DNA from: Coleofasciculus chthonoplastes F2-STO-03
Lineage (GTDB): Bacteria; Cyanobacteriota; Cyanobacteriia; Cyanobacteriales; Coleofasciculaceae
DNA: 64,000 bases
Assembly (NCBI GenBank): GCA_040222015.1
Contig: JAVJWO010000067.1
Span: forward strand, 15,272 to 79,271
Direction: 5' to 3'
Shown: positions 2 through 48,332 of the stretch, piece after piece
How the letters are laid out: each line of letters starts with the position of its first letter
Numbering within the stretch: the first letter of the stretch is position 1
Made by a program: the position numbers and the translations under genes
The notes under the pieces: generated by a model
The model's input: only the letters and a program-made list of their open reading frames with translations
The model's database searches: none
Told to the model about the DNA's origin: nothing

Positions 2-1837
2 AACCTTAATGATGGCGGTGATATTACTCTCAACGCCCGTGGTAATATTCAAGTCAGCCAGATTAACGCCCAAAGTCTGGGTGATGGCAATGGCGGAGAT
101 GTCGATATTACCACTCCCAGTTATTTCCAAGCCACTGACTCCTTCATCGACCAAAATAACATCAACGCCAGTATTTCTGTCGCTGGGGGTGACAACGGTG
201 GAACCATTATTATTCGCCACGGCGGAGACGGTGAGATTCCCTTTATTGTCGGTAATCCTGATATCAATGGCACAGCAGCCGCGATTACTAGAGGCGATGA
301 CGCGGGGATACAGACAATTGAACCCACTAGAGACTATTTCTTTACCCACAAACGGGATAGAGACCGCATTCAAATTATATCGATTCTGGGCGCTGTACCT
401 CTACCGCCAACGCCCATTCCTGTGCCAGAACCAACACCCAAGCTAAACTTAGATCAAAATCCCATCGAGTCGTTAGCCTTTCGAGTTGGGGATACGTTAG
501 ACGCCGATACTACGATTAACCAAGACCCAGAAACCGGAAACTATAATATTAGCTGGAGATTTCCTGGCGAACAACCTATCAACCTCAACGTTAACAACCC
601 CCCAACTCCACTTGAAGTCACCCCCCAAGATGATATCATTGCTGAAATCGACCAACTCTTTGAAGATGAATTTGAAGACTACTTTGGCGAAAACTTAACC
701 AATGCCAACGTCACCGCCGAAAGCTTACGGGAAACACTGAAAACCATCGAACAGCAAACCGGAAAACGTGCGGTTGTTATCTATGCCCGTCATCTGGAGG
801 AAGGATTGGAACTGGTATTAGTTTTACCGGAAGACAATTATATCCGTAAACTGGTTCCCGCCGCTAATATTACCACCCTGAAAAATACTGTCAGCGAATT
901 TCAGGAGATGGTTACGGATATTACCGAATCCCGTGGCTACCTCCCCGCCGCCCAACAGCTTTATCAATGGTTAATTGCCCCCCTAGAATCCGACTTAGAC
1001 GCCTTAGATATTGATACGCTTATCTTCTGTATGGATGCCGGATTACGTCAACTTCCTATGGCGGCGTTACACGATGGCAAGCAGTTTCTGATTGAAAACT
1101 ATAGCATTGGTTCCATTCCCAGTGTTAGCCTCACCAACACCCGTTATCAACCCGTTAAAAATGCCCAAATTCTCGCCATGGGCGCGACTGAATTTTCGGA
1201 TTTAGGGGAATTACCCACAGTAGACACCGAATTAAAGATTATCACTCAAACCTTGTGGACAGGGGAATCCTTCCTCAACGAAGAATTTACCCTCAGCAAT
1301 CTGAAAACCGAGAGTCGCCGCCAACCTTTTGAGATTATCCATCTCGCCACCCATGCTGAATTTAATGACGGTAATCCGAGTAACTCCTATATTCAACTGT
1401 GGGATACGAAACTGAGACTCAATCAAGTGCGCCAACTGGAATGGTATTTACCCCCGCCTATCGAATTATTAGTCCTCTCAGCCTGTCAAACCGCCCTGGG
1501 AAATATTGAGGCTGAATTAGGATTTGCCGGGTTAGCGGTACAAACTGGCGTCAAGTCGGCGGTAGCTAGTCTGTGGTATGTAGGCGATGAAGCGACGCTG
1601 AGTTTAATGAGTGGATTCTATGCCCAATTACGCCTACCGGATATCACGATTAAAGCCGAAGCTTTGCGTCAAGCGCAACTGGCGATGTTACGGGAACAGG
1701 TGTATTTTGAAGGAGGGAAATTAACCGGAATTGAAGGGTTAGATGTTACACTTCCTGGATTGGGAAGTCGGGCAAATCAACGATTATCCCATCCTTATTA
1801 TTGGGCAGGATTTACGATTATTGGTAGTCCGTGGTAG
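2..1837 (+). CDS. Filamentous-haemagglutinin-repeat / CHAT protease fusion protein, 5'-truncated by the window edge
   Basis: Frame 2 is open from base 2 (NLNDGGDITLNARGNIQV...IIIRHGGDGE...), aligns by eye to the pre-CHAT region of the 15520-20802 protein, and continues into ORF 422-1837. CHAT motifs HLATHA, LLVLSACQTALG and HPYYWAGFTIIGSPW are present. Confidence 0.9.
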   Translation, partial: NLNDGGDITLNARGNIQVSQINAQSLGDGNGGDVDITTPSYFQATDSFIDQNNINASISVAGGDNGGTIIIRHGGDGEIPFIVGNPDINGTAAAITRGDDAGIQTIEPTRDYFFTHKRDRDRIQIISILGAVPLPPTPIPVPEPTPKLNLDQNPIESLAFRVGDTLDADTTINQDPETGNYNISWRFPGEQPINLNVNNPPTPLEVTPQDDIIAEIDQLFEDEFEDYFGENLTNANVTAESLRETLKTIEQQTGKRAVVIYARHLEEGLELVLVLPEDNYIRKLVPAANITTLKNTVSEFQEMVTDITESRGYLPAAQQLYQWLIAPLESDLDALDIDTLIFCMDAGLRQLPMAALHDGKQFLIENYSIGSIPSVSLTNTRYQPVKNAQILAMGATEFSDLGELPTVDTELKIITQTLWTGESFLNEEFTLSNLKTESRRQPFEIIHLATHAEFNDGNPSNSYIQLWDTKLRLNQVRQLEWYLPPPIELLVLSACQTALGNIEAELGFAGLAVQTGVKSAVASLWYVGDEATLSLMSGFYAQLRLPDITIKAEALRQAQLAMLREQVYFEGGKLTGIEGLDVTLPGLGSRANQRLSHPYYWAGFTIIGSPW

Positions 1838-2454: not shown

Positions 2455-3162
2455 TTAATCATCTATCGCTTCAACTTCACCCGCGATCGCACTTTGTGGT
2501 AAATCCGCTAAACCCATTGATTTTAATAGGGTTTCCCAGGTTGAAGGGAGGGTACGAAGCTGGGAGATATCCTGGGGCAGATCATACCAAATATTATGTT
2601 CAATTAATAGGTCAATCTGTTGGGATAAAGGCGCTTGCTGTATCTGCGTCTCTAAGTCTTGATTATCCAACCGTTTTACCCATCCCTGATGCCAAACGCG
2701 ATCGCGCATGGATGATCCGGAGGATGTACAATATAGCATGAGTTTCCAAGTGTAGCGTTGATTTGGGGCTAAGGGGGGCGCGGTTTTGGGTAAACTAATC
2801 TGAATTAAACCGGGGGTTTGGGGTAGAGAAAATTCCTGTCGGTAGATGGTATTTTGTTGTTCGTCTTCTATGGTAAATTTGCCGGAATGGAGGCTACTTG
2901 TTTGATAGGGAATGTAGAACCAAAGGGTAGGATATCCGTTGAGAGTGTAGCCGGAAAATTCGCTATTAGTCAGGGGTAATAAGGGGGTAAAGGGTTGATC
3001 TGTTTTCTCGCAGGAACCCCGAGTTCCACCGGGATTTCGTTCTTCTGCGGGTTCACTGTCTGGGGGTTTGGGTGGATTATTGGTAGTCGGTGGGGTTTGA
3101 TTGGTTGGGGTGGAGGTGATGAGAATTAAGGAAAGAATGAGTGGAAGGTTTGGGAAAGTCAT
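2455..3162 (-). CDS. DUF928 domain protein (secreted/periplasmic)
   Basis: Hydrophobic N-terminus, Pro-rich linker, GGTRGSC, PTLWFYIPY, LAPNQRYTW, GWVKR and IWYD motifs typical of DUF928. Confidence 0.85.
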   Translation of the reverse strand: MTFPNLPLILSLILITSTPTNQTPPTTNNPPKPPDSEPAEERNPGGTRGSCEKTDQPFTPLLPLTNSEFSGYTLNGYPTLWFYIPYQTSSLHSGKFTIEDEQQNTIYRQEFSLPQTPGLIQISLPKTAPPLAPNQRYTWKLMLYCTSSGSSMRDRVWHQGWVKRLDNQDLETQIQQAPLSQQIDLLIEHNIWYDLPQDISQLRTLPSTWETLLKSMGLADLPQSAIAGEVEAIDD

Positions 3163-3268: not shown

Positions 3269-5608
3269 CTATCGATTTGGGTTGGGGTTGGGTTGATGTT
3301 TATGGGTTTGGTGTTTAACTGTGCATAGGTTGGTGATTAGATGGGCAAAAATAGAGGGAGTTAGGGGAAGGTAAAGATGAAGGGTGATAAAAATAATAAA
3401 GCTAACTCCTCCAATGCTAATTAGGATGATTCCACTGGCGATTCCTCGATAGATTAAGCCGGAAATCCGCCAGTTAATTAGTCCGGCTGATAACGCCCAT
3501 GTTCCAATCCAAAGACTCTCTATCCACCAGGGGGGAAATTGAAGTAGGGAACGTTTGTCTGTAACAGCGCTAATCAGTTGACTGATTTTATGGGCGTGAA
3601 GGTGTAAGCCGCGAATCTCTTGATTGTCTGGTGTTTTAAAGTAATCTTTGACGCTGGGATCGGTAACGCCAATTAATATGATTTTGTTTTGAATTAAGGC
3701 GGGATTCACTTGATGATTGAGTACCTGAGTTAGGGTGACAGTTGGGGCAATTTCCTCAGTGCGGCGATAGTTAAGCATGATTTGGTGTGATTTGACTTGG
3801 GAGGGGGTATAAAATCCAGGGTGACTATTCAGAATGTTGAAGCGAATTCCGCCAATTTGCCATTGTTTGGCGGTGGGAAAGTCAACAGAAAAGCCCTGAT
3901 TCTGTAAATAACGTAGGGCGATTTGGGAACTAAAAGCATAGTAGGCGGAACAGTTGGAAGGTTGAGGCGGATTCATGGCTAAAAGATGACGGCGAACAAT
4001 GCTATCGGAATCGGTAATTACATCACTAAAGCCTAGACGCTTGTCGGGAATTTGCGGTGGTGGTGAGATACCTTCGGGATCATTCTGATTGGGATGGGTA
4101 CAAATCGGAATCACGCGATCGCGCGTTTTGAGATACTCAATTAATTCCCCTTGACCTTTGCCTTCAGGTCGGTCACGATAGATATCTAAACCGATAAGTT
4201 GGGGCTGATATTGGTCTAAGGCTTGTAATAATTGCCGCATTGTGCGATCATGCAGTGGATATTCGTTGCCTAAGTTGGCGATATCCTGCCGAGTAATCTG
4301 TACCAGCAACAACCGTTGATCCGGTTCCTCCGGCTGACGCGATCGCCCAAACCAATCAAACGTCTGAAATTCCCAAGATTGCCATACACCCAGCGATCGC
4401 ATTCCCATCACCAATACCGTTACCCCCACTGTCGCGGCGATTACCCGCCACCGAGGAAGGGATGACGAGGGAGAGGGAATCGGTTGAAGCTGTTGATTCA
4501 CCCAATGGCGATCAAAAACAGAGGCATAAATCCGATTCGCCACCTGCAACTGTCCCCCCCGCTTCACCACTAACCCCGATAACCGTAATTGCTGCTGCAA
4601 ATGATTCTGATCAGCCGGAACTTTTTTCCCTTTTAGTATCCGGTGATACAGCATTAATAACGGTTGACTATCTTGATGCCCAGACAAGACGCGATCGCGA
4701 ATCGTCCGCAGATGTTCAGGATTATCCTGAGACAGCCAATTATCGAGAATGTGCGATCGTACCACCTGATCCACAAAACCAGTAGGTAGGGTGTGGGGTG
4801 TAGGGTGTGGGGTGTAGGGAAGCATTTGTTCCCTTTGTTCTCCTACCGCCTGACACACCAACCGACATACTTTTTGCGTCAGAAACGGTTGTCCCCCTGT
4901 CCAATTTAATATAGCTTGAAGTACCGCATCAGGATGACGAACCTTTCCCTGTAATCCCCTAACTAAAGGTTTCGCTTCCTCCGGCGTAAACCCCTTTAAC
5001 TCAATCGCCAAACTATCAAAATTAAACGGCGTGCGTTGATTATCCGCAATCAAATCCGATGGCGTCGCCACTCCCAACAACGCAAAGGTTAAACGCTGGT
5101 ATTTCGGCTGAGATGCCCGTTTATTATAACAAGTGCGGATAAAGCCAAACAGATCATCTTTAAAGTCTAAATTCAGAATACTATCGATTTCATCAATAAA
5201 AATAGCAATCTTACCCGCAACCCTTCCCAAAACCTCCTCATCCACGAACTTACTGAACCGATCAAAGGGAGATAAATACTCATACCGATACCACCACTCC
5301 GCCTCATCCAGATCCAACGCAAACCCACTCACCAAATGACTCACCATTGTGCCATAAAACTCCTCCTGATTAATTTGAAAACTACAGATATCCCGCATTT
5401 CCATTTCCACACAAGCGAACCCCTGATCTTGCAAGCGTTTCATCGTCCGCACCAACAAACTCGACTTACCCATCTGACGAGAATTCAGCACATAACAAAA
5501 CCGCATCCCCCTCAATCCCAGATAAAGTTCTTGATCCGCCGCCCGAACCACATAATTCGTCGCCTCCAGGGGTAAAGCGCCACCTACTTGATAGTCGTCA
5601 TTTGTCAT
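3269..5608 (-). CDS. AAA_35-family ATPase fused to a membrane CHASE2 sensor domain
   Basis: YQVGGAL, Walker A NSRQMGKSSL, Walker B IFIDEIDS, WTGGQPFLTQK; a TM helix; CHASE2 motifs LLLVQITRQDI, IGLDIYRD, DSDSIVRRHLL, IILIGVT; three C-terminal TM helices. Confidence 0.88.
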   Translation of the reverse strand: MTNDDYQVGGALPLEATNYVVRAADQELYLGLRGMRFCYVLNSRQMGKSSLLVRTMKRLQDQGFACVEMEMRDICSFQINQEEFYGTMVSHLVSGFALDLDEAEWWYRYEYLSPFDRFSKFVDEEVLGRVAGKIAIFIDEIDSILNLDFKDDLFGFIRTCYNKRASQPKYQRLTFALLGVATPSDLIADNQRTPFNFDSLAIELKGFTPEEAKPLVRGLQGKVRHPDAVLQAILNWTGGQPFLTQKVCRLVCQAVGEQREQMLPYTPHPTPHTLPTGFVDQVVRSHILDNWLSQDNPEHLRTIRDRVLSGHQDSQPLLMLYHRILKGKKVPADQNHLQQQLRLSGLVVKRGGQLQVANRIYASVFDRHWVNQQLQPIPSPSSSLPRWRVIAATVGVTVLVMGMRSLGVWQSWEFQTFDWFGRSRQPEEPDQRLLLVQITRQDIANLGNEYPLHDRTMRQLLQALDQYQPQLIGLDIYRDRPEGKGQGELIEYLKTRDRVIPICTHPNQNDPEGISPPPQIPDKRLGFSDVITDSDSIVRRHLLAMNPPQPSNCSAYYAFSSQIALRYLQNQGFSVDFPTAKQWQIGGIRFNILNSHPGFYTPSQVKSHQIMLNYRRTEEIAPTVTLTQVLNHQVNPALIQNKIILIGVTDPSVKDYFKTPDNQEIRGLHLHAHKISQLISAVTDKRSLLQFPPWWIESLWIGTWALSAGLINWRISGLIYRGIASGIILISIGGVSFIIFITLHLYLPLTPSIFAHLITNLCTVKHQTHKHQPNPNPNR

Positions 5609-5833: not shown

Positions 5834-7168
5834 CTAACCCCCCGATTCAATCCGACTCTCAAAATACTGACGAAATAACTCATAACGAGGACTAACGCCA
5901 TCCCCTTCCCACCGTACCAACCCCAAATTCTCCAAAACATCCGCCACCTCTGGATTCAATCTTACCGGATGATTAACACCAACAACCTGATTAAACACCG
6001 CCACTAACTCCGGCAATTGATGTAACTTTTGTTCATACATCAGCAAATAATCCCGATAAAGTCCCCTAGGAGTCGCCGCCATTACCAACACCTCCTCCAA
6101 TGTGACCAACTTTTGTCCAATTTGCTTAATCGCCTCTTGCACTAAATAAGGCTGTCCCCCCACCATCGCCATTAACCGATTCACCTGATCTCCTTGCCAA
6201 TCTAATCCATAATGTTGCGCCAACTCTTGCACCTGTTCCCGACTCAATTCCGGTAACGCGATCGGAAGTCCCGTATTAAATGGCGACTGATTAATATCAA
6301 GTTCGCGATAATCTTCCGTATACACTAAAACCTGACGCAACTTGCCCCAAATTGGGCGCGTTTTCGCATCCTCATGTCGCGTTCGCAGCATCCCTAAAAA
6401 CTCGCCAGCAACCTCTGGATACGGAAAAATTCGATCCACTTCATCTAACCCCAAAACCAGACAACTGTCTCCGGGTAACAGATGCTTTTCAAAATACGTC
6501 TTACACTTATTCTTACTATTGCCAATACTCTTCTGCCAATGTTCAGCAACTGGATTATCTGACAATGATTCTTGGTTCAGACTCAGCGTCACACTGGTAC
6601 AGAACCATTGCAGAAATCGATTCAAATCTTGAAAATCCGTCGCCGTTGCATCCCGCAGATTCAAACTCACTGCGCGATAACCCTGATCCGCCGCATAATT
6701 CAACACCCGTGACATCAACTCGGTTTTCCCCATCTTCCACGGCGCTTTAATCCGCAGCAAACATCCCGGCTTCAGGATTTCCCGGTAACAGGTAGGCAGA
6801 ATCCCCGGTTCACTATAAATATCTTGGCAAAGAGGAGACGCGATCGCACGGGAATCTGTCTCTGGATTCCTCAGTTGTTCTCCATACTGTTGATATCGCA
6901 CATACTCCCGCTTTAACCAGTCTCGCAAGCGCTTAAATTTCCCCTTTTTCTCCGTATTCAGCGCCGGACAAGAATGGGCAAATGTCGCATAAATTCGTCC
7001 CATTCGTCGTTGCAGCGTCGCCTCACTGATATGTAAATTGTCAGCAATTTTGGCATCAAGTTCAGCCAAATTGCGTTCCGCAAAGCGGAGACAGAACACC
7101 CGTCTCTCATCGGCATCAAATATACCCTGATAATCTGCAATTTGTTGTAAAAATGTATCCCACGACAT
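5834..7168 (-). CDS. AAA_35-family ATPase with an N-terminal helix-turn-helix-like domain
   Basis: IKAPWKMGKT (Walker A), LVLGLDEVD (Walker B), INQSPFNTG, MVGGQPYLV. The N-terminal IADNLHISEATLQRRMGRIY resembles a LuxR/sigma-region-4 HTH. Confidence 0.82.
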   Translation of the reverse strand: MSWDTFLQQIADYQGIFDADERRVFCLRFAERNLAELDAKIADNLHISEATLQRRMGRIYATFAHSCPALNTEKKGKFKRLRDWLKREYVRYQQYGEQLRNPETDSRAIASPLCQDIYSEPGILPTCYREILKPGCLLRIKAPWKMGKTELMSRVLNYAADQGYRAVSLNLRDATATDFQDLNRFLQWFCTSVTLSLNQESLSDNPVAEHWQKSIGNSKNKCKTYFEKHLLPGDSCLVLGLDEVDRIFPYPEVAGEFLGMLRTRHEDAKTRPIWGKLRQVLVYTEDYRELDINQSPFNTGLPIALPELSREQVQELAQHYGLDWQGDQVNRLMAMVGGQPYLVQEAIKQIGQKLVTLEEVLVMAATPRGLYRDYLLMYEQKLHQLPELVAVFNQVVGVNHPVRLNPEVADVLENLGLVRWEGDGVSPRYELFRQYFESRIESGG

Positions 7169-7379: not shown

Positions 7380-7419
7380 TGATACCTTCTGATAGCTTGT
7401 GATACCTTTTGATAGGTTT
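7380..7419 (+). promoter_or_regulatory. 10-bp-phased direct repeat array TGATA(C/G)... x4, candidate operator
   Basis: TGATACCTTC TGATAGCTTG TGATACCTTT TGATAGGTTT, plus a further TGATAG at 7444, between divergent genes. Confidence 0.6.
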
Positions 7420-7574
7420 AAAACAAACCCTCACAATTCTATCTGATAGCTAGCTGTGGGTTCAAATTCAAAATAAACCGATTTAATAGACTTATAAGCA
7501 AAATACATACATCTGATCGATCAGACCTATTTTCCAGTTATCTCAACTCTCTCAGAATTTTCAGGAGTACGATT

Positions 7575-9284
7575 ATGCTGAAATTCAAACCCATTCTTTC
7601 TCTTACCGTAGTCGGACTATCTCTCAGCCTACTCAGTAGTGGTAAAGCCTCAGCCTTTAGCTTCAACTTTAGCCCAATAGTAGAAACTAGCGATTCATTC
7701 AGTTCCTTTACCAGCCTCGGATCAGGACTCGGTACTGCAGGCGGAAATAGCGGCTATAAGTTGTCCAATGACTCCAACTATCAAAACGGAAAAGGACTGG
7801 CAATTAACAATAATGGTCAAGTCGTCTTTTTTGCCGAACTCAAGTCAGGAGACCAAGGAATCTATGTTGGTACGGGTGTCAGCGCCCCAGAAATCATTGT
7901 TGACAACAAATCTTACTCTATATTTAGCAGTTTTGGTCAGGGACTATCCCTTAATAATGATGGCACAGTCGCTTTTTTTGCCGATGTCGATTCTGGAGAA
8001 CAAGGCATCTTTACCAGCAGTGGTGTCAGTAACACTCAACAAATTGCCCATACAAACGGAACCTATAGTAGCTTTGCTCCTGGATTATCTCTCAACGATA
8101 ATGGCACGGTTGCCTTTCTTGCCAATCTCGATAGTGGAGCGCAAGAAATATTTACCAGTGATGGTAATAAAACGATCCAAATTACCAACTGTATAGGTGC
8201 TGGCTCATCCGAGCAACAATGTCCTCTCTCCAGTGGAAATCTTGATCCTCTTGCACCTGACATTAATAATCAGGGAATGGTTAGCTTTGTGAGTCACTAC
8301 GGTGTCTTTACAGGGGATGAGAATGGCAACTATTTGATTGTTTCCGATCCCACTAACTTTTGGAATGGTTCATATCGGGAAGCCAACATAAATGACCAAG
8401 GAGAAGTCTCAGCCTTTGCTCATAATAATGGTGCAGGTCAAGTCATTTTTAAGACGAATGGCATTAATGGTGAATTGATTGCTGGGAACAATTATGACGA
8501 GTCAGGAACACCCGATACATTCTATAACCTTGGCACCAGTTCTATCAATAATAAAGGACTCGTCGCTTTTATGGCAAATCAGGTCGTTGAAGGGTCTAGC
8601 GCCTTTAGCAACCAGGATAAAGGTATCTTTGTGGGCAGTAATGCAGTCGAGGATAAAGTTATTGGCATTGGCGATACCTTATTCGGTTCCACTGTAGTTG
8701 ATTTAGCCATGGATCGGCAAAGCCTGAGTGATGATAATGAGATTGTCTTCTGGGCAAAAATGGAAGATGGGACAGAAGGAATTTACCGCGCTAATAACAT
8801 CGCTGACTCCCAATTTAATCCTTTGCTTCCTGATAGTACCTTGGATGGAGTGTTCCGATTTATTGACGTGATTGGCGGAAAATGGTATGACCCACCTTCC
8901 GCCTATGGCTTCCGCTACGAAATGACCGGGGATTCTTTATTTACCTCAATTTTAAACTTCCCGGTTGGCTTTGAAAATCCCTTCACCGTATCTGTAGGAG
9001 ATACAAATCTGGGTGAATTTCTACCTGGAGACAGTATCGATTTTGTCTCGCTTTTGGGTGATGGTGTTTCTGAATTTACGATTACTGGACTTGATGTTGA
9101 TCCAACTAATCCCACAGCGTTCCCAATTAAACTTGACTTTGATACGGATACCGCGAGTTTCGATATGCACGCACTCATAGAGGAAGACAGTCAGAACGTG
9201 CCTGAACCCGTTTCTGTCGTCAGTTTGTTGACCTTTGGTTCAGGTGTTGTACTGTTGCGTAGACGGAAAGCACAGCAGGTGTAG
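7575..9284 (+). CDS. PEP-CTERM surface protein with NxxGxxAF-type tandem repeats
   Basis: Signal peptide; repeats NNNGQVVFF, NNDGTVAFF, NDNGTVAFL, NNKGLVAFM; C-terminal VPEP, hydrophobic helix and RRRK. Confidence 0.88.
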   Translation: MLKFKPILSLTVVGLSLSLLSSGKASAFSFNFSPIVETSDSFSSFTSLGSGLGTAGGNSGYKLSNDSNYQNGKGLAINNNGQVVFFAELKSGDQGIYVGTGVSAPEIIVDNKSYSIFSSFGQGLSLNNDGTVAFFADVDSGEQGIFTSSGVSNTQQIAHTNGTYSSFAPGLSLNDNGTVAFLANLDSGAQEIFTSDGNKTIQITNCIGAGSSEQQCPLSSGNLDPLAPDINNQGMVSFVSHYGVFTGDENGNYLIVSDPTNFWNGSYREANINDQGEVSAFAHNNGAGQVIFKTNGINGELIAGNNYDESGTPDTFYNLGTSSINNKGLVAFMANQVVEGSSAFSNQDKGIFVGSNAVEDKVIGIGDTLFGSTVVDLAMDRQSLSDDNEIVFWAKMEDGTEGIYRANNIADSQFNPLLPDSTLDGVFRFIDVIGGKWYDPPSAYGFRYEMTGDSLFTSILNFPVGFENPFTVSVGDTNLGEFLPGDSIDFVSLLGDGVSEFTITGLDVDPTNPTAFPIKLDFDTDTASFDMHALIEEDSQNVPEPVSVVSLLTFGSGVVLLRRRKAQQV

Positions 9285-9435: not shown

Positions 9436-9548
9436 AGCATACCCGTCAGTAACATTGATCTATACCTATTGAATCTTGGCTAGAGTTCTTTATGGGTAAA
9501 GGCACAAACAAATAACCAACAAAGTCTGAAAAGTTGAAGGAGAAAAAA

Positions 9549-10469
9549 ATGTTGAACTATACCGCAAAACTTTCTATTTCTGCTAAATTCATCCCTATCG
9601 CCACCGTATGTGGTTTGCTATTTGCCACAGGCGAATCCGCTCAAGCTGCTACGTTTGCTCTCAATGAAGATACTACTGTTGATACATTTACCGAATGTGT
9701 CAACGATGGTATTGCCCTCAAAGTTGGCAAAAATCCCGTTGATGAATCAGGATGGCAATATGCGATTGATTCATTTAATGATGGCGTGGATGGATTGCAA
9801 GTTGGTGGGGATGGTAATCCCTATGAAATTTACAGTTTAGCTCTCAAGGAAACCAAAGATAGCCTTTTTGTGGCGATTAATGGCAATATGTCGTTAACAG
9901 GTGTTGATGGAACCAGTGCTGAGGATGGCAATATTGGGTGGGGTGATTTGTTCTTCAATTTTACCGATCAAGATTTCACCACGGCAAATAATCAAGGAGA
10001 TTTATTCGGAGTCCGTTTTGCCGGAACCAATGATTCCTTAGTCCCTAATCTTGGTCTTTATGGCAATGTCACCGCGATTAGTACCACAGATATTAATAGT
10101 GGATTTGAGAGTTTGGCAGAATACAACCAACGAGTGAATGATTTTTGTCAAGGTGCTGGTTGTGGTCCGAGTCTGGGGGATTTACCTGCTGATACCTCCT
10201 ATTTTGACCAATCTCAAAGTTTAAATACGATTAGTTCCGGTGAATTTCTCACCAGTCTTATGTATCTGTCTGAGTCGGAATTACTCGCTGCTGGCTATGA
10301 CTTGAATCGCTTTGATGGTGAACATACCATCGCCTTCAAGTTCGATAAATCGGGGATTTGCGATCGCGGTTACTGTACGTCAGTCCCTGAACCCTCTGCT
10401 GGCTTGGGTTTAGCCGCCCTCGGCTTAATGGTTGGCGTTAGTCAACTGCGTAAGCGTTACTCAGCTTGA
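9549..10469 (+). CDS. PEP-CTERM (exosortase-dependent) surface protein
   Basis: GAAGGAG SD before ATG 9549; signal peptide ending AQA; C-terminal VPEPSAGLGLAALGLMVGVSQLRKR. Confidence 0.87.
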   Translation: MLNYTAKLSISAKFIPIATVCGLLFATGESAQAATFALNEDTTVDTFTECVNDGIALKVGKNPVDESGWQYAIDSFNDGVDGLQVGGDGNPYEIYSLALKETKDSLFVAINGNMSLTGVDGTSAEDGNIGWGDLFFNFTDQDFTTANNQGDLFGVRFAGTNDSLVPNLGLYGNVTAISTTDINSGFESLAEYNQRVNDFCQGAGCGPSLGDLPADTSYFDQSQSLNTISSGEFLTSLMYLSESELLAAGYDLNRFDGEHTIAFKFDKSGICDRGYCTSVPEPSAGLGLAALGLMVGVSQLRKRYSA

Positions 10470-41199: not shown

Positions 41200-43911
41200 T
41201 TAGACAGTGATAAAGTCAGCTGATGTCAATAAACCACTAGAATCCACATAAGCAATGATTTCAGATCCTAAACCAATTCGTGTTCCATTATTCATGGAAA
41301 TACCACTGACTGTACCTGTGTATGAACTCAAACTGTAACTTGACAGTGAGCCATGAATCTGAAGCTTGTCGAACTCAGTTTCACCGGAGAAACTATATCG
41401 GTCGAAATTGTCAATGACAGCGTAATCGAGTCCAGCACCGTTGTAATAGATTGAGCTACTGGTGCCGAGAATAATCCGATCGCTAGCATCATAGTAACCT
41501 GGGTTGATGATATCGATTTCACCCGCACCGTCTAAGATACTGTTGGTTCCGCTCAATGTATCGGAACCGCTGCCCCCAACGAGGGTATCGTTACCCCCTG
41601 CACCAGTGAGCGTATCGTTTCCAGTACCACCATCAAGACTATCGTTACCAAAATTGCTAGAGGAATCATCACCTGTCAGGCGATCATTTCCACTACCACC
41701 GAGTAGAATATCGTTACCCGCTTCTCCTTGGAGGGTATCATTACCTGAACCGCCATCCAAGCGATCGCCAATCGTATCAACAGCACCCAGAGTATCGGAG
41801 TCAAGGTAATCATTGCCGCTACCGCCAATTAGAGTATCCGCACCCCCTTGACCCAATAATCGGTCATTACCTGTACTACCATCTAAGGAATCGCTCCCAG
41901 CACCGCCATCGAGGGTGTCATTCCCCGCATAGCCATAGAGCGTATCGTTTCCAGTACCCCCAGAAAGACTATCGTTGCCAAAATTGATTGAGGAATCATC
42001 TCCTGTCAGGCGATCATTTCCACTACCACCGAGTAAAGTATCGTTACCAGCTTCTCCTCGGAGGGTATCATTACCATCACCGCCATCCAAGCGATCGCCA
42101 ATCGTATCAACAGCACCCAGAGTATCGGAGTCAAGGTAATCATTGCCGCTACCACCAATTAAGGTATCCGCACCCCCTTGACCATAAAGATAATTGTTAG
42201 AACTATTACCACTGATACTGTTGTTGAGGCTGTTGCCTCGTCCGGAAGAAGCCGTGCCAGTCAGTGTCAGATTTTCCAGGTTATTTCCCAGGGTGTAACT
42301 GATCGAGGAATAGACGCGATCGCTGCCTTGGTTGGCGTATTCGACGACTACATCACCTGTAGAATCAACCACGAAGCGGTCATTACCCGTACCGCCATAC
42401 ATGCGATCGCTTCCTGTACCACCCGATAGGTAGTCGTTGCCTGAGCTACCCGATAGGTAATCATTGCCAGCATAGCCGTAGAGGTAATTGTTAGAACTAT
42501 TACCACTGATACTGTTGTTTAGGCTGTTGCCTCGTCCGGAGGAAGCCGTGCCAGTCAGTGTCAGATTTTCCAGGTTATTTCCCAGGGTGTAACTGATCGA
42601 GGAATAGACGCGATCGCTGCCTTGGTTGGCGTATTCTGTAACTGTATCACCTGTAGAATCAACTACGAAACTGTCATTACCCGTACCGCCATACATGCGA
42701 TCGCTGCCTGTGCCACCATTGAGGTAATCATTTCCGGAACTGCCACTGAGGGTGTCGTTGCCTGTGCCGCCATACATGCGATCGCTACCTGTGCCACCAT
42801 TGAGGTAGTCGTTACCTGAGCTACCCGATAGGTAATCATTGCCAGCATAGCCGTAGAGGTAATCATTACCGCCATTGCCGTTCAGGACGTTCCTAGCGCT
42901 GTTACCCTTGATCGTGTCGTTCCCTGAACCGCCGTTGGCGTTTTCGATTAAGGAACGGGCATCGTCTTTATACTGAAGTGCATTAAACACATGACCACGG
43001 GCATCTTTGCCGCTGCCAAGACGGGCACGTTGGGAGTTCCCGCCAACATCAAGGTCAGACCAACCCCCTGGCGCCAGGTTGATTGATAGATTAGTGGTGT
43101 AGTTGGAGAAGTTGTAAGTATCAATCCCGTTACCATCCCAGATTGTGCGGAAGATACGGTTAGCACCTGGTGTACCTTGCCCAACACCATTAACAGACAT
43201 CTCCCCAGTGTCTTTATCAAAGGTGTAAGTCGTGTTGCCGGAATTGTAGCCAAACGATGCACCATACATCTGCTGAATTGCGGCGATGTCGTACATCATC
43301 AGCGACTGGGCATACCCCCATGTCTCATTTGTATATCCGCCAGAGCCTGGATGCCCTACATAAGATTTGTAGGTCATAATCGAGAACTCCATTGAGTCGC
43401 GATTGGAATTCATAGAGACATTGCGAACACCGCCAGTCTCGTGCCCATGTTTCAAGCCCAGTGCATGACCAAGCTCATGTCCAAAGGTGTGATAAGACCA
43501 GTTACCGATTTTCGGGCTGGTTGTTTTGGTTCTGTTAAACCAGGCGTCCCCGGCTTGGACAGTGTTTCTAGGGTAATAAGCGTATGCGGTATTAGGGTCG
43601 TTTGACATTGCCATGCGGATGGTTGCATCGCGATCGCTAGTACCCGTCCGTTCAGAGAAAGTAAGATTGGAAATATTGGCAAATGCCCCTAGCCATTCTC
43701 GCGCCACAGCTCGTTGAGTTGCATTTAACGATTGGAAGCTATCAGCATGATCCGCACGGTCGGGATAACCAGACTCATAGTCATTGATGCTGTTAGTGAA
43801 GCTAAAGCTCACTGAGTTAGATTTCCACTTAGATCCACCTAGTAAGCCATCAATGTTATTGTCGTCGGTTGCTGTTACAGTTGTTGATGGTGTGGGAACT
43901 CCAAAGCTCAT
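41200..43911 (-). CDS. Serralysin-like M10 zinc metalloprotease with RTX Ca-binding repeats
   Basis: HELGHALGLKH zinc motif, SIMTY Met-turn, YDIAAIQQMYG, IENANGGSGND, many GGxGND nonapeptides; no Sec signal; AAGGAG SD; internal 294-bp and 330-bp duplications. Confidence 0.93.
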   Translation of the reverse strand: MSFGVPTPSTTVTATDDNNIDGLLGGSKWKSNSVSFSFTNSINDYESGYPDRADHADSFQSLNATQRAVAREWLGAFANISNLTFSERTGTSDRDATIRMAMSNDPNTAYAYYPRNTVQAGDAWFNRTKTTSPKIGNWSYHTFGHELGHALGLKHGHETGGVRNVSMNSNRDSMEFSIMTYKSYVGHPGSGGYTNETWGYAQSLMMYDIAAIQQMYGASFGYNSGNTTYTFDKDTGEMSVNGVGQGTPGANRIFRTIWDGNGIDTYNFSNYTTNLSINLAPGGWSDLDVGGNSQRARLGSGKDARGHVFNALQYKDDARSLIENANGGSGNDTIKGNSARNVLNGNGGNDYLYGYAGNDYLSGSSGNDYLNGGTGSDRMYGGTGNDTLSGSSGNDYLNGGTGSDRMYGGTGNDSFVVDSTGDTVTEYANQGSDRVYSSISYTLGNNLENLTLTGTASSGRGNSLNNSISGNSSNNYLYGYAGNDYLSGSSGNDYLSGGTGSDRMYGGTGNDRFVVDSTGDVVVEYANQGSDRVYSSISYTLGNNLENLTLTGTASSGRGNSLNNSISGNSSNNYLYGQGGADTLIGGSGNDYLDSDTLGAVDTIGDRLDGGDGNDTLRGEAGNDTLLGGSGNDRLTGDDSSINFGNDSLSGGTGNDTLYGYAGNDTLDGGAGSDSLDGSTGNDRLLGQGGADTLIGGSGNDYLDSDTLGAVDTIGDRLDGGSGNDTLQGEAGNDILLGGSGNDRLTGDDSSSNFGNDSLDGGTGNDTLTGAGGNDTLVGGSGSDTLSGTNSILDGAGEIDIINPGYYDASDRIILGTSSSIYYNGAGLDYAVIDNFDRYSFSGETEFDKLQIHGSLSSYSLSSYTGTVSGISMNNGTRIGLGSEIIAYVDSSGLLTSADFITV

Positions 43912-44096: not shown

Positions 44097-44134
44097 AATT
44101 CAGGATAATTCAGGATAATTCAGGATAATTCAGG
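44097..44134. promoter_or_regulatory. 10-bp-phased direct repeat AATTCAGG(AT) x4, candidate operator
   Basis: aattcaggat aattcaggat aattcaggat aattcagg, ~185 bp upstream of the RTX protease start. Confidence 0.55.
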
Positions 44135-44271
44135 TTTCAGTCATATATATAGGGTTTACCGGTGTGGTGAGGTACATGATCAGGGCTGGGGATGAGGGCG
44201 CAATGATGGTGTCCCTACAGGGTGTACCTCACGCAATTGAGAACTGCGATAAACCTCCCACGGCTAGGTTG

Positions 44272-44325
44272 TGATAGCTTTTGATATCTTCTGATAGTAA
44301 TAACCCGACTAAAGTTGATACCTAA
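44272..44325 (+). promoter_or_regulatory. 10-bp-phased TGATA array x3 plus an isolated copy, candidate operator
   Basis: TGATAGCTTT TGATATCTTC TGATAGTAAT at 44272-44301 and TGATACC at 44316; same motif as 7380-7419. Confidence 0.55.
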
Positions 44326-44451
44326 CGGGGGGTTCTGCACCAAGAATTCCCTTTTTAATAGACATAGATGAGACACGAAAAGGTAGGGGCACCATCCTTG
44401 CGCCCCCACAGCAGAAACCCTATAACCCCTAACCGTTAAGGATGCTCGACC

Positions 44452-45846
44452 ATGAAATTTAACCGAGAACAGGCAGTACAAATAGCCAAGCAAGTTGTAT
44501 CCGATCAAACCCACCGCAGCTTAACCGATGTTGAAGTAATCGTTCTCAAAGGATCTTGGGATAGACAAGAGTACGATCAAATTGCGGCACAAAATCAATA
44601 TTCGACCAGTTATATCAGTCAAGATGTCGCCCCAAAACTGTGGAAAACCTTAACGGATGCCTTGGGTGAGAGAGTCAAAAAAAGTAACTTAAAACAAGTT
44701 TTAGAGGCATATTGGCAACAGAAAATGGCGGCTACTGACTCAACCAATCCCCTCAGCCAAAATCATAATTATCCTTTGCCTTCAGCCTCCCCAAAACAGC
44801 AAAGTACAGAGTTATGCAAAACCACTCCCGAAGCACCAGCCGCCTTGACACCCGATCGCTATGTGGAGCGCTCTCCCCTAGAAACCATCTGCGCGAAAAC
44901 CCTATCCCAACCGGGGGCGCTAATACGGATTAAAGCACCTAGCCTCATGGGTAAAACCTTTCTCGTGACTCGAGTATTGGCTCAACTCGCCACTCAAGGC
45001 TACCGCATCGCCAGTGTAAGCTTGAAGCTGGCAGATAGCAGCAAACATTTCACCAATTTGGATAAATTCTTACGCTGGTTGTGTATTAATTTGACTCACG
45101 AACTCCATTTACCCAATGAGTTAGACGAGTATTGGGATGAAGACTATATGGGGTCAAAAGTGAGCTGCACCACCTACTTTGAAGACTATCTCTTAGCCCA
45201 AGCCAATACCCCCTTAGTTCTCTGTTTCGATGATGTGGATTTGCTCTTCCCCCATCCCGAAGTTTATGAAGACTTTTTTGGACTCCTGCGTTCCTGGTAT
45301 GAAAAAACCAGGAGTCGCCAGCGCTGGAAAAAATTACGATTAATTATTGTCCATTCAACGGATGTGTATATCCGGTTAAATATTAATCAATCTCCCTTTA
45401 ATGTCGGCTTACCCATAGAACTATCCGATTTTACCCCAGAACAGGTACAAACCTTTGCCCAGTATCATGAATTAGAACCAAATATGAGTCTAATCCAACC
45501 CCTAATGCAGATGGTGGGGGGACATCCCTATCTCTTGGAGCAAGCCTTTGCTCACCTGAAAAATCATCCAGAAATTACCCTAGAGCAGCTCCTAGCAGAA
45601 GCCCCCACGGAATCCGGAATCTACAAGAGCCATTTGCGGGAAAACTGGTTACATCTGCGATCGCATCCTGAACTCGCTACAGCATTTAAACAGGTGGTAA
45701 CCGCAACCATCCCGATCCAACTGGAACCTATATCAGCCTATCAACTCCAAAGCCTGGGATTGATCAAACTATCGGGGAATCAAATAGAGCCGCATTGTAA
45801 CTTATATCGTTTGTATTTTCGTCAGTATTTAGGAGACATTGAATGA
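44452..45846 (+). CDS. AAA_35-family ATPase with an N-terminal HTH-like domain
   Basis: N-terminal LTDVEVIVLKGSW...YDQIAA...PKLWKTLTDALGERVKKSN, an HTH-like module I recognise from cyanobacterial NTPases; IKAPSLMGKT, LVLCFDDVD, INQSPFNVG, MVGGHPYL. Confidence 0.85.
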   Translation: MKFNREQAVQIAKQVVSDQTHRSLTDVEVIVLKGSWDRQEYDQIAAQNQYSTSYISQDVAPKLWKTLTDALGERVKKSNLKQVLEAYWQQKMAATDSTNPLSQNHNYPLPSASPKQQSTELCKTTPEAPAALTPDRYVERSPLETICAKTLSQPGALIRIKAPSLMGKTFLVTRVLAQLATQGYRIASVSLKLADSSKHFTNLDKFLRWLCINLTHELHLPNELDEYWDEDYMGSKVSCTTYFEDYLLAQANTPLVLCFDDVDLLFPHPEVYEDFFGLLRSWYEKTRSRQRWKKLRLIIVHSTDVYIRLNINQSPFNVGLPIELSDFTPEQVQTFAQYHELEPNMSLIQPLMQMVGGHPYLLEQAFAHLKNHPEITLEQLLAEAPTESGIYKSHLRENWLHLRSHPELATAFKQVVTATIPIQLEPISAYQLQSLGLIKLSGNQIEPHCNLYRLYFRQYLGDIE

Positions 45847-48332
45847 ATACTGAACTTCAGCCAACGTACAGGTATCAAATTGGTGGCAGTTTACCCCCAG
45901 ATTCTTCAACCTACGTGGTGCGACAGGCAGATTCAGACTTATTTAACGCCTTATTAGCAGGGGAATATTGCTATGTTCTCAATTCCCGACAAATGGGTAA
46001 ATCCTCCCTGCGAATTCGTACCATGGACAAACTACAAGCCCAAGGAATTGTCTGTGCCGAGATTGAACTCACTGGAATTGGGAGCCAACAGATTACGGCA
46101 CAACAATGGTATGGTGGAATTATTCAAGAACTGATCAGTGGTTTTGACTTGCCGATCAATCGACGCCATTGGTTACGCGATCGCGAGGATCTTTCCCCAG
46201 TACAACGGTTGAGTGAATTTATCGAAACTCTGTTGCAGCAAATCCCCAAAAACATCGTCATTTTTATCGATGAAATTGATAGTATTCTCAGCTTAAACTT
46301 CCTCACCGATGAATTTTTTGCCCTAATCCGCAACTGCTATAATCAGCGAGCCTCTAAACCTGACTATAAACGCCTCACTTTTGCTCTATTAGGCGTCGCC
46401 ACGCCATCGGATTTAATCCAAGATAAAAATGCTACTCCTTTTAACATTGGTCGCGCCATCGAACTCAGAGGCTTCCAATTCCATGAAAGTGGAGCTTTAG
46501 TCGCCGGATTGGTTGGTCGAGCTAATCATCCTCAAGCCCTGTTAAAAGAAATATTATATTGGACAGGAGGACAACCATTTCTGACCCAGAAACTCTGTTG
46601 GCTTATCGCTCAGTCTGGTTTCGTTCAAAGTCAGGAAGTTGACACTATTCCCCCTGGTGAAGAATCCAAATGGGTAAAACAGTTTGTACAAAAGCAGATT
46701 GTCGAACATTGGGAAGCCCATGATGATCCAGAGCATCTAAAAACTATTCGCGATCGGATTTTGCGGAATGCTCGTAACAGTGAAAAATTGCTATTATTAT
46801 GCCAACAAATTCTCCAACATGGAAAAATTGCCGCCATAAATTCTGATGAACAGATGGAATTACGGCTATCGGGAATAGTCACCAAACAAGAGAGTTATTT
46901 ACGAATTTATAATCCTATCTACGAATCTGTCTTTAATTTAAAGTGGGTGAGTGCTAAACTAATCGCATTGAACTCATCCCCAATCCGAGTAGACAAGGCA
47001 ACCGACAAAAAGGCAAAAATTCCCGAAGATATCAAGGAGATTGAGCCGGAATCATGGAACAATCCTCCAGAAGCGATTCCAATTTCCCCAATTCCTGCAT
47101 CGGAGAGCCAAGTATTACCTGTAGACTCGCGGCAAGAACCGTGGTGGTGGGTTGGGTTAAGGGTACTAATCGCCAGTGCGATCGCAACAGGTTTGGTTTT
47201 AGGAGTGCGATCGCGCGGTGGGTTGGAGTCTTGGGAACTTCAAGTCTTTGATCACCTGATGCGGTTACAACCCCAGGAAGAACCCGATGAACGACTTTTA
47301 ATTGTGGAGATTACCGAAAAAGACGTTCAGGCTCAACCCGCAACCGAACGAGTGGGTGCGTCTCTATCGGATCGCGCCTTTGCTCAACTCCTGGCTAAAT
47401 TAGAGTCGTATCAACCCCAAACCATTGGCTTAGACATTTATCGCGATCGCCCTGTAGAGGACAACTATCCAGAGTTAGCCCAAGCCATGGAAACGAGCGA
47501 TCGCTTGTTTACCATTTGCCATTACGGTAATCCTGGGGTGATACCGCCACCGGAAGTGTTAGGCGAACGACAAGGTTTTAATAATGTAATCCTGGATGCT
47601 GATGATATTCTGCGTCGTCATCTTCTCGCGGTTTCTGACGCCTCACCCTGTCAAAATCAATACGCTTTTAGTACACAGGTTGCTAGTCATTACCTAGCTA
47701 CCCAAGGAATTGAGCCGCACCTGAATTCCGACGGGTATCTTCAGCTTGGCTCAACCGTATTTAAAACCTTAGATACAAACCCTGGCGGCTATTCGACGAT
47801 CAAGTCCAGTGGTCACCAAATTTTACTCAATTACCGCGCCACGAATCAGATTGCTGAGAAAATTACGCTTACAGACGTTCTCAATGGTCAACTCAATCCT
47901 GAACAGGTAAAAAATCGTATTGTTCTAATTGGTACCACGGCTCCCAGTTTTAACGATCATCGTTGGTTCACTCCCTACAGTAAAGGAAAAGGAACCGTTC
48001 GAACCATGACGGGGATTGAAATTCAAGCCCAGATGGTCAGTCAAATTCTCAGTGCTGTTTTAGATCAGCGATCGCTAATCTGGTGGTGGTCAGAACCCAT
48101 TGAGATCCTCTGGATTTGCGGCTGGTCTTTAATTGGTGGACTACTTGCCCAAAATTCTCGTTCACTGCAAGGTTTTCTGGTTCAAGGCGGAGTCGCGATC
48201 GCTATTTTATATGGAAGCGGCTGGGTGCTTTTCCTGCAAGGGGGTTGGATACCCCTAGTTCCCGCCGCTTTAGCCTTGGTTATGACTGGAGGTATGCTGA
48301 TTGTTTTATCTCGATTTAAGATTAATCCGTAG
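45843..48332 (+). CDS. AAA_35-family ATPase fused to a membrane CHASE2 sensor domain
   Basis: ATGA overlap with the upstream gene; NSRQMGKSSL, IFIDEIDS, WTGGQPFLTQK; TM helix; IGLDIYRD, DADDILRRHLL, IVLIGTT; three C-terminal TMs. Confidence 0.9.
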   Translation: MNTELQPTYRYQIGGSLPPDSSTYVVRQADSDLFNALLAGEYCYVLNSRQMGKSSLRIRTMDKLQAQGIVCAEIELTGIGSQQITAQQWYGGIIQELISGFDLPINRRHWLRDREDLSPVQRLSEFIETLLQQIPKNIVIFIDEIDSILSLNFLTDEFFALIRNCYNQRASKPDYKRLTFALLGVATPSDLIQDKNATPFNIGRAIELRGFQFHESGALVAGLVGRANHPQALLKEILYWTGGQPFLTQKLCWLIAQSGFVQSQEVDTIPPGEESKWVKQFVQKQIVEHWEAHDDPEHLKTIRDRILRNARNSEKLLLLCQQILQHGKIAAINSDEQMELRLSGIVTKQESYLRIYNPIYESVFNLKWVSAKLIALNSSPIRVDKATDKKAKIPEDIKEIEPESWNNPPEAIPISPIPASESQVLPVDSRQEPWWWVGLRVLIASAIATGLVLGVRSRGGLESWELQVFDHLMRLQPQEEPDERLLIVEITEKDVQAQPATERVGASLSDRAFAQLLAKLESYQPQTIGLDIYRDRPVEDNYPELAQAMETSDRLFTICHYGNPGVIPPPEVLGERQGFNNVILDADDILRRHLLAVSDASPCQNQYAFSTQVASHYLATQGIEPHLNSDGYLQLGSTVFKTLDTNPGGYSTIKSSGHQILLNYRATNQIAEKITLTDVLNGQLNPEQVKNRIVLIGTTAPSFNDHRWFTPYSKGKGTVRTMTGIEIQAQMVSQILSAVLDQRSLIWWWSEPIEILWICGWSLIGGLLAQNSRSLQGFLVQGGVAIAILYGSGWVLFLQGGWIPLVPAALALVMTGGMLIVLSRFKINP

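What the first reader, a model, noticed from the sequence alone, without database searches (positions are those of the whole stretch)
7380..7453. Helically phased TGATA array at locus 1, shared with locus 2
Seen: four TGATA(C/G) units at exact 10-bp spacing (7380, 7390, 7400, 7410) plus one at 7444, ending ~155 bp before the PEP-CTERM start. The same motif and phasing recur 37 kb away at 44272/44282/44292 (+44316), ending ~150 bp before the second HTH-AAA_35 start, in the same orientation relative to the downstream gene. The units are degenerate outside the core, unlike a fresh slippage repeat. Inference: one-face-of-helix binding sites for an oligomeric HTH-ATPase.
Basis: partly seen in the sequence, partly recalled or inferred. 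Interest (0 to 1): 0.82.

Follow-up and report, generated by a model that had tools for sequence, protein, structure and literature searches.

The report
Operator array of cyanobacterial HTH-STAND activator
The TGATA repeats are the upstream half of a conserved promoter-like module, found only in cyanobacterial genomes that carry one clade of helix-turn-helix ATPases; it is likely the binding site through which this uncharacterised, MalT-like regulator switches on genes for secreted proteins.

Summary
The array is real: four TGATA units 10 bp apart plus one at 7444, and likewise at 44272-44316. The genome has only three exact triples, all upstream of HTH-AAA_35 genes. The repeats belong to a longer module: (TGATA-N5)2-5, a proximal TGATA, N9 GGGTT N19 TnTAAT N6 A, with spacers of random identity between lineages. 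The strict core occurs in 8 of 301 genomes, all carrying one HTH clade. That clade has a TATCA array in 19 of 22 genes, against 0 of 102 other family members; sister clades have their own phased repeats. Best reading: operator and weak sigma70-type promoter of the locus-1-class HTH-STAND protein, which likely activates secreted-protein genes in the manner of MalT and is predicted to pair with its membrane CHASE2-ATPase neighbour. Its HTH is of another class with its own (AATTCAGGAT)4 array. The TGATA module there is a duplicated cassette that likely places system 2 under system 1. Binding, start sites and activation are untested.

The parts
7380..7419 (+). Array of four TGATA(C/G) units at 10-bp period; predicted operator of the locus-1-class HTH
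   Evidence: conserved in orthologues
7444..7449 (+). Promoter-proximal TGATAG unit (about -50 to -45), 34 bp after the last array unit
7458..7462 (+). Conserved GGGTT, 9 nt after the proximal unit (predicted -35 region)
7482..7494 (+). TTTAAT (predicted -10 box lacking the -11 A), 6 nt, then predicted +1 A at 7494
   Evidence: register supported by sister clades; start site not measured
7575..9284 (+). Predicted target: secreted NxxGxxAF/DUF7453 repeat protein with a VPEP C-terminal tail
   Evidence: the tail is read from the sequence; the PEP_CTERM model was not reported for this protein
9534..10469 (+). XDD3 exosortase-dependent surface protein; its paralogue is the downstream gene at the C46 locus
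5834..7168 (-). Locus-1 regulator: N-terminal tetrahelical HTH (aa 1-95) plus AAA_35 STAND-type NTPase module
3269..5608 (-). Partner: AAA_35 NTPase, hydrophobic segment, CHASE2 sensor, C-terminal hydrophobic segments; predicted to bind the regulator's NTPase module
2455..3162 (-). DUF928 protein, recurrent neighbour of these loci
44272..44366 (+). Second copy of the module: units 44272/82/92, proximal unit 44316, GGGTT 44330, TTTAAT 44354, predicted +1 44366; points into the locus-2 operon
44193..44408 (.). 26-nt inverted repeat arms (44193-44218, 44383-44408) enclosing the second module; the enclosed segment is absent in the G001 orthologue
44097..44136 (+). (AATTCAGGAT)x4, a separate 10-bp array; likely the locus-2 HTH's own operator
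44452..45846 (+). Locus-2 HTH-AAA_35 with a different HTH class
45843..48332 (+). Locus-2 AAA_35-CHASE2 partner
41200..43911 (-). Serralysin-like RTX metalloprotease divergent from locus 2; candidate output of system 2

Best explanation
The TGATA array, its proximal unit and the conserved GGGTT-N19-TnTAAT core form one module that is likely the operator and weak sigma70-type promoter of the locus-1-class HTH-STAND protein (window 5834-7168 and its C46 paralogue), which would activate the downstream secreted-protein genes. Shown: the module, its fixed geometry, its restriction to genomes with this HTH clade, and copies before unlinked genes. Inferred mechanism: a signal at the CHASE2 domain of the membrane NTPase partner triggers NTPase-module oligomerisation with the regulator. 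Several HTH domains then bind head-to-tail on one face of the helix, and the unit at about -48 recruits RNA polymerase to a promoter too weak to fire alone (no A at -11, non-consensus -35). At locus 2 a duplicated copy of the module would put a second HTH-STAND/CHASE2 system, which has its own AATTCAGG operator, under control of the first.
For: (1) All three exact triples in G000 lie upstream of HTH-AAA_35 genes; the third is 100 bp from the closest paralogue (52% identical HTH), in the same CHAT/DUF928/AAA-CHASE2/HTH-AAA/surface-protein layout. (2) Among 124 family HTH genes, 19 of 22 with helix L[QE]R[RKQ][LM]G have 3 or more TATCA units within 450 bp, against 0 of 102 others. Of the 3 misses, one contig ends 282 bp upstream, one has the array about 690 bp away, one is a true exception. 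(3) The link holds in two other families where the HTH is fused to other, longer proteins in other neighbourhoods (G155, G206, G248; NACHT shown for G248). (4) Sister HTH clades carry other phased motifs (TAGAA, GTATA, CTGAC); a G693 paralogue with a changed helix has TGATG/TGAGG units. (5) Strict core: 8 of 301 genomes, 0 reversed-pattern controls; all 19 matches have 2 or more further units upstream although the pattern did not ask for them. (6) Out of sample: G693. (7) Free spacer positions are only 21-46% identical among locus 1, C46, C15, G206, G155 and G248, with one pair at 56%. (8) The distance from the array to the HTH start varies from 76 to over 300 bp among orthologues, while array-to-core spacing is fixed within each lineage: 24, 34, 44 or 10-11 bp. 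(9) HTH fold like Spo0A/NarL (Z 7.9, rmsd 3.6, 95 aligned); NTPase module like STAND NBD-HD-WHD (2qen, E 1.7e-8). (10) Complex model of the two NTPase modules: score 0.75, best control 0.26, contacts agree in at least 81%, partner pLDDT at least 84; the mark was reached by 116 of 157 solved and 2 of 215 mismatched pairs.
Against: No binding, start-site or expression data; the RNA runs were contigs with flat, DNA-like cover. Activation versus repression is inferred only from box position and weak core. Array and HTH gene are usually cis-linked, so shared descent inflates the counts: 19 of the 24 rows of the clade are from one family. Motif classes were defined after seeing the data, and the strict pattern was built from modules of the same 8 genomes, so only its negatives are independent. 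The HTH search covered 251 genomes, not all 301. The clade has SH-aLRT 85 in a quick tree of 91 columns and holds two long-branch rows with other motifs. One same-helix gene (L027) has no array. Bare TGATA triples occur in 38 of 301 genomes, some before locus-2-class HTH genes (G253, G199) or in a genome without this clade (G159). The complex score may reflect likeness to solved STAND oligomers; no paralogue control was run. The Walker B glutamate is missing in many orthologues (LDTV).
Confidence: 0.72

Rival explanations
1. Same protein and same sites, but it represses (the target promoter, or mainly its own divergent promoter).
For: The array lies 76-211 bp upstream of the HTH gene in many loci. 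A minus-strand sigma70-like site, 7465 to 7436, overlaps the proximal unit.
Against: That site is at chance level (2 found, shuffle mean 1.2). The boxes lie upstream of -35 and do not cover -10 or +1. The core is weak. Spacing is fixed towards the target and free towards the HTH gene. Modules stand at genes with no HTH neighbour.
Confidence: 0.12
2. Each array is bound by the adjacent HTH-AAA_35, so both HTH classes read TGATA.
For: The locus-2 module is directly upstream of that gene. Two locus-2-class HTH genes elsewhere have TGATAAAAAG arrays in the same orientation (G253, G199).
Against: The two HTHs do not align by BLAST. The 85%-identical G001 orthologue and five 62-67% homologues lack the module but keep AATTCAGG repeats. 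The locus-2 copy is 62-77% identical in free spacers to modules before unrelated genes. The G253/G199 arrays lack the core.
Confidence: 0.05
3. The sites belong to a different, global regulator, for example an OmpR-family protein that binds 10-11-bp direct repeats (RpaB HLR1 and Pho boxes, recalled).
For: The geometry fits such regulators (recalled), and trans copies exist.
Against: The strict core is not found in 293 of 301 genomes of the order. The motif changes with the HTH clade.
Confidence: 0.05
4. A neutral slippage repeat or hitchhiking cassette with no binding function.
For: The C46 array is nearly perfect (TGATACCTTT)n, with 3-5 copies among relatives. The locus-2 copy sits between inverted repeat arms and is absent in G001.
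Against: The core stays fixed while spacers are randomised across three families. Spacer lengths 24, 34 and 44 keep one helical phase. Only the 5-6-bp core of each unit is kept.
Confidence: 0.04

Closest known systems
MalT of Escherichia coli (STAND transcription activator)
   Same: STAND nucleotide-binding module plus HTH; multimerisation allows cooperative binding to promoter boxes and RNA polymerase recruitment (PMC4381067, abstract and introduction read). A direct-repeat motif in all MalT promoters (title of Vidal-Ingigliardi 1991, seen only in the reference list of PMC8265627). LuxR/NarL-like HTH fold.
   Different: Here the HTH is N-terminal, there is no sensor domain in the same chain, and the likely sensor is a separate membrane CHASE2 protein with its own NTPase module. 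The motif, the 3-5-unit 10-bp array and the core are different. No homology to MalT was tested or found.
SARP-LAL regulators such as PimR (Streptomyces)
   Same: N-terminal DNA-binding domain plus ATP-binding region; three heptameric direct repeats one turn apart, cooperative binding, and activation of a second regulator gene in a hierarchy (PMC5930380, abstract read).
   Different: SARP domains are OmpR-like winged helices (recalled); this HTH is all-helical in the model. 10-bp rather than 11-bp period; cyanobacterial; targets are secreted proteins.
PF26355 HTH_VMAP-M9 and PF14516 AAA_35 proteins of cyanobacteria
   Same: AAA_35 passes the curated cut-off. The nearest Atlas clusters of the locus-1 HTH carry PF26355 (score 0.87, a lead only).
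   Different: No binding site or regulon for these domains turned up in my searches. The passages read in PMC7159879 and PMC8195603 treat related STAND proteins as conflict systems and name no operator.
Spo0A effector domain
   Same: Best structural match of the HTH (1fc3, Z 7.9, rmsd 3.6, 95 aligned). Tandem head-to-tail box binding is recalled, not confirmed (one search found no fitting paper).
   Different: Z under 8 may mean only a common HTH arrangement; 10% identity; no receiver domain.

Membership tests
STAND NTPase | NBD-HD-WHD nucleotide-binding module | tested here: met
   Model pLDDT 80; best Foldseek matches 2qen, 2fna, then ORC/Cdc6, NB-ARC and Avs proteins
STAND NTPase | Walker A and Walker B motifs | tested here: inconclusive
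   Walker A MGKT invariant; Walker B is LDEV in the window protein but LDTV or FDDV in most relatives; the partner keeps RQMGKSS and EID
STAND NTPase | C-terminal repeat sensor in the same chain | tested here: not met
   The protein ends after the winged helix at aa 444
STAND NTPase | Inducer- and ATP-dependent oligomerisation | not testable with these tools
   Only a heterodimer model
MalT/LAL family | C-terminal LuxR HTH after a TPR-like sensor | tested here: not met
   HTH is N-terminal; no GerE/LuxR or TPR Pfam hit. It works like MalT by inference but is not a member.
MalT/LAL family | Asymmetric boxes in direct repeat with a box next to -35 | tested here: met
   Array plus proximal unit at about -50 to -45; position relative to a predicted, unmeasured start
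SARP | OmpR-type winged HTH plus BTAD domain | tested here: not met
   No strands in the HTH model, no BTAD hit
PF14516 AAA_35 | Score above the curated cut-off | tested here: met
   355.5 bits against 27
PF26355 HTH_VMAP-M9 | Profile match of the N-terminal domain | tested here: inconclusive
   No hit in the Pfam copy scanned; Atlas look-alike 0.87 only
sigma70-type promoter | -10 TAnnnT | tested here: not met
   -12T and -7T kept, but -11 is never A in 0 of 34 matches from genus g1, G016 and G693 with that position left free; sister clades have nAnAnT or TATnnT in the same register
sigma70-type promoter | Transcription start 6-7 nt after the -10 box | not testable with these tools
   Only contigs were available
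Rfam RNA | Match at gathering score | tested here: not met
   0 matches in the window

The most novel reading that the evidence does not exclude
Cyanobacteria run a large family of split STAND signalling systems in which a membrane CHASE2-NTPase nucleates an NLR-like oligomer of an HTH-NTPase on a helically phased operator. Each HTH clade has its own repeat code, and portable promoter cassettes wire the systems into cascades. In this clade the oligomer does more than recruit polymerase: it helps open a promoter that lacks the -11 A normally needed to start melting, a sigma54-like logic in a phylum without sigma54 (the last two points are recalled knowledge).
Probability: 0.25. Interest if true: 0.88.

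Novelty: new variant of a known kind. Interest (0 to 1): 0.68.

Why it matters
HTH-fused AAA_35 and NACHT proteins are common in filamentous cyanobacteria (this HTH family alone is in 95 of 251 genomes) and are usually filed as immune-like proteins of unknown output. A defined operator, a promoter geometry, a small regulon of surface proteins and proteases, and a helix-to-motif code make them testable as transcription factors. The set of clade-specific HTH/operator pairs is also a possible source of orthogonal inducible promoters for cyanobacteria.

Tried and rejected
RNA data: 13 runs listed, all contigs; four laid, with flat cover through intergenic DNA, so no start site or level. Sequence search of PDB: nothing under E 0.66. 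Foldseek with the HTH alone: nothing at E 0.001 or better. Rfam: none. Consensus promoter scan: chance level, and it misses the module because it demands -11A. Relaxed unit PWM in G000 returned only the three training loci (circular). The loose regex gave 3 hits without arrays among 7; the loose pattern gave 5 hits without arrays outside genus g1/G016/G693, against 12 control hits, so these are treated as chance. Bare TGATA triples are not diagnostic (38 of 301 genomes). SigF/SigJ, ECF and sigma28 readings of the core were considered by eye from recalled consensus and fit worse than a weak -10 with a YR start. The careful tree did not finish; the quick tree is quoted. The wider profile search of 1.84 billion proteins was not available, so the family's range beyond the GTDB samples is open. 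PMC98911 was not held, so MalT box spacing is not checked in print. No supplementary files were read; supplements of PMC7159879 may list these architectures.

Full report
Observation. In the 7.72-Mb genome an exact (TGATA-N5)x3 occurs at three loci only, against about 0.03 matches expected. The window comes from a cyanobacterium whose closest named relatives are Coleofasciculus genomes (HTH up to 97% identical).

Surroundings. Locus 1 reads CHAT, DUF928, AAA_35-CHASE2, HTH-AAA_35 (minus strand), array, then two secreted surface proteins. Locus 2 reads RTX metalloprotease (minus), array, HTH-AAA_35, AAA_35-CHASE2. The third locus, C46:62186, lies 100 bp upstream of the closest paralogue of the locus-1 protein, in the same layout. 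The two window HTHs are different classes: their N-terminal regions give no BLAST hit to each other. Of 20 AAA_35 or related-HTH genes inspected in this genome, 17 have no TGATA array.

The module. Aligning the sites shows more than the repeat: (TGATA-N5)2-5, a spacer, a proximal TGATA, 9 nt, GGGTT, 19 nt, T-n-T-A-A-T, 6 nt ending in a pyrimidine, then A (17 anchored rows, of which I set aside 3 spurious anchors and shifted 1 by a base). The last array unit lies 24, 34 or 44 bp before the proximal unit, or 10-11 bp where the proximal unit ends the array. A fourth G000 site lies at C15:1076-1147. A weight matrix trained on 7 modules from other genomes, without array information, scores the four G000 sites 29.7-39.6 and the next site 19.1; three training rows are close kin of the locus-2 copy. 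I read TnTAAT as a -10 box and the A as +1 (7494 and 44366). Sister clades show nAnAnT (12 of 16 rows anchored) or TATnnT with CTGACA at -35 (7 of 13 rows anchored) in the same register. With position -11 left free, none of 34 matches in genus g1, G016 and G693 has A there.

Who binds it. The locus-1 HTH family is found in 95 of 251 genomes of the order. Phased 9-12-bp repeats (score 3 or more) stand upstream of 53 of 124 family genes against 40 of 600 control genes (129 records, 2 internal fusions and 3 with short flanks dropped; many rows are close kin). The repeat differs by clade: TATCA, TAGAA, GTATA, CTGAC (classes chosen after viewing; many rows have no class). For the helix L[QE]R[RKQ][LM]G the count is 19 of 22 against 0 of 102. 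The pairing holds in G155, G206 and G248, two other families where the HTH heads 1000-1330-aa proteins beside unrelated small genes, and there the GGGTT-N19-TnnAAT core is kept too. The strict core is found in 8 of 301 genomes, all with this clade, with 0 control hits; the positives were training genomes, the 293 negatives were not. All 19 matches have further units upstream. A looser search of 52 family genomes found a new module in G693, with units at -44, -54 and -64, divergent from a same-helix HTH-AAA_35. G311 has a related HTH with a two-unit array, a unit 43 bp further and a divergent core, plus an unlinked triple beside a TPS-like gene. A second G693 paralogue with helix GQATLERRLA has TGATG/TGAGG units. 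Against exclusivity: L027 has the helix and no array; G159, G199 and G253 have TGATA triples without the core and without this clade.

Direction and trans action. The distance from the array to the HTH start drifts among orthologues as repeats insert (76 to over 300 bp), while the array-to-core distance is constant. Modules also precede a subtilase-like gene, a peptide-export cluster with HlyD, and a 71-91-aa ORF upstream of a peptidase ABC exporter, some with no HTH gene nearby. G008 has one locus-1-class HTH and four modules. So the module faces the target and is read in trans.

Locus 2. The module is present in G000, G003 and G005, absent in the 85%-identical G001 orthologue and in five 62-67% homologues, all of which keep AATTCAGG repeats; two 61% homologues from other families show neither array. 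In the window that second array is (AATTCAGGAT)x4 at 44097-44136. The TGATA copy is enclosed by 26-nt inverted arms and is 62-77% identical in unconstrained positions to the subtilase and export promoters of other strains, whereas locus 1, C46, C15, G206, G155 and G248 are mostly near random identity. It is therefore a duplicated cassette. Gain is likelier than loss but not shown. The predicted effect is a cascade from system 1 to system 2.

Proteins. Residues 1-95 fold as a helical HTH (pLDDT 85) closest to Spo0A and NarL/LuxR domains (Z 7.9 and 7.0; middling scores). The rest is a STAND-type module with no sensor. The membrane partner keeps intact Walker motifs, while the regulator's Walker B is often degenerate. 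A model of the two NTPase modules scores 0.75 against a best control of 0.26; the mark was reached by 116 of 157 solved and 2 of 215 mismatched pairs; runs agree in at least 81% of contacts, partner pLDDT at least 84. This supports binding but may reflect likeness to known STAND oligomers.

Mechanism. Most likely (0.72) an activator of the MalT kind with the sensor moved to a second, membrane-bound STAND protein. Shown: sequence module, geometry, distribution, co-variation. Inferred: binding, start sites, activation, partner contact, signal, cascade.

Literature. Seen: PMC4381067 (abstract, introduction), PMC5930380 (abstract), PMC8265627, PMC7159879, PMC8195603, PMC5587647 and PMC11119718 (passages only). 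Nine searches showed no description of this operator or regulon in their listings; the library lacks most subscription papers. It is an AI note, not evidence, but it means the general idea is not new to the scan. The TGATA clade, the core lacking -11A, the clade-to-motif code and the cassette at locus 2 are additions.

Verdict. Real feature; new variant of a known kind; interest 0.68.

Noticed in passing
window 44097-44136: (AATTCAGGAT)x4, kept in locus-2 homologues of this genus; some have a second TTCAGG array about 600 bp upstream. Likely the operator of the locus-2 HTH.
   Followed up: partly
G000 C180:14781 and C155:9182 upstream regions: Two more genes of the locus-1 HTH family, each with its own phased repeat (GCTAACAT x3; GTAGA x3) just upstream.
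   Followed up: partly
G000 C49:37301, C7:20712, C30:44355 upstream regions: Other HTH-AAA_35 genes with different direct repeats upstream.
   Followed up: no
L014, L015, L130, L299 upstream regions: TAGAA-class HTH genes face a short divergent ORF, Pro/Thr-rich with a hydrophobic stretch; possible small membrane effector under the array promoter.
   Followed up: no
G000 C15:1097-2466 (L235): Fourth module precedes a conserved 71-91-aa ORF, then an HTH-like protein and a peptidase ABC exporter with an HlyD-like neighbour.
   Followed up: partly
window 41200-43911 and orthologous loci L236, L237: The gene divergent from locus 2 is swapped among strains: metalloprotease here, a subtilase-like RTX protein in G003 and G005, another protein in G001.
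   Followed up: no
L118, L124: The locus-1 HTH also occurs inside vWA-type proteins ahead of an FGE-sulfatase-like domain, with no array.
   Followed up: no
L095 (G159 C1:2506928 and 2512168): Two TGATAC arrays without the core, before a cyclase-like gene and a large repeat protein, in a genome lacking this HTH clade; binder unknown.
   Followed up: partly
window 9-1837: CHAT-domain gene appears split into two overlapping ORFs (9-446, 422-1837).
   Followed up: no
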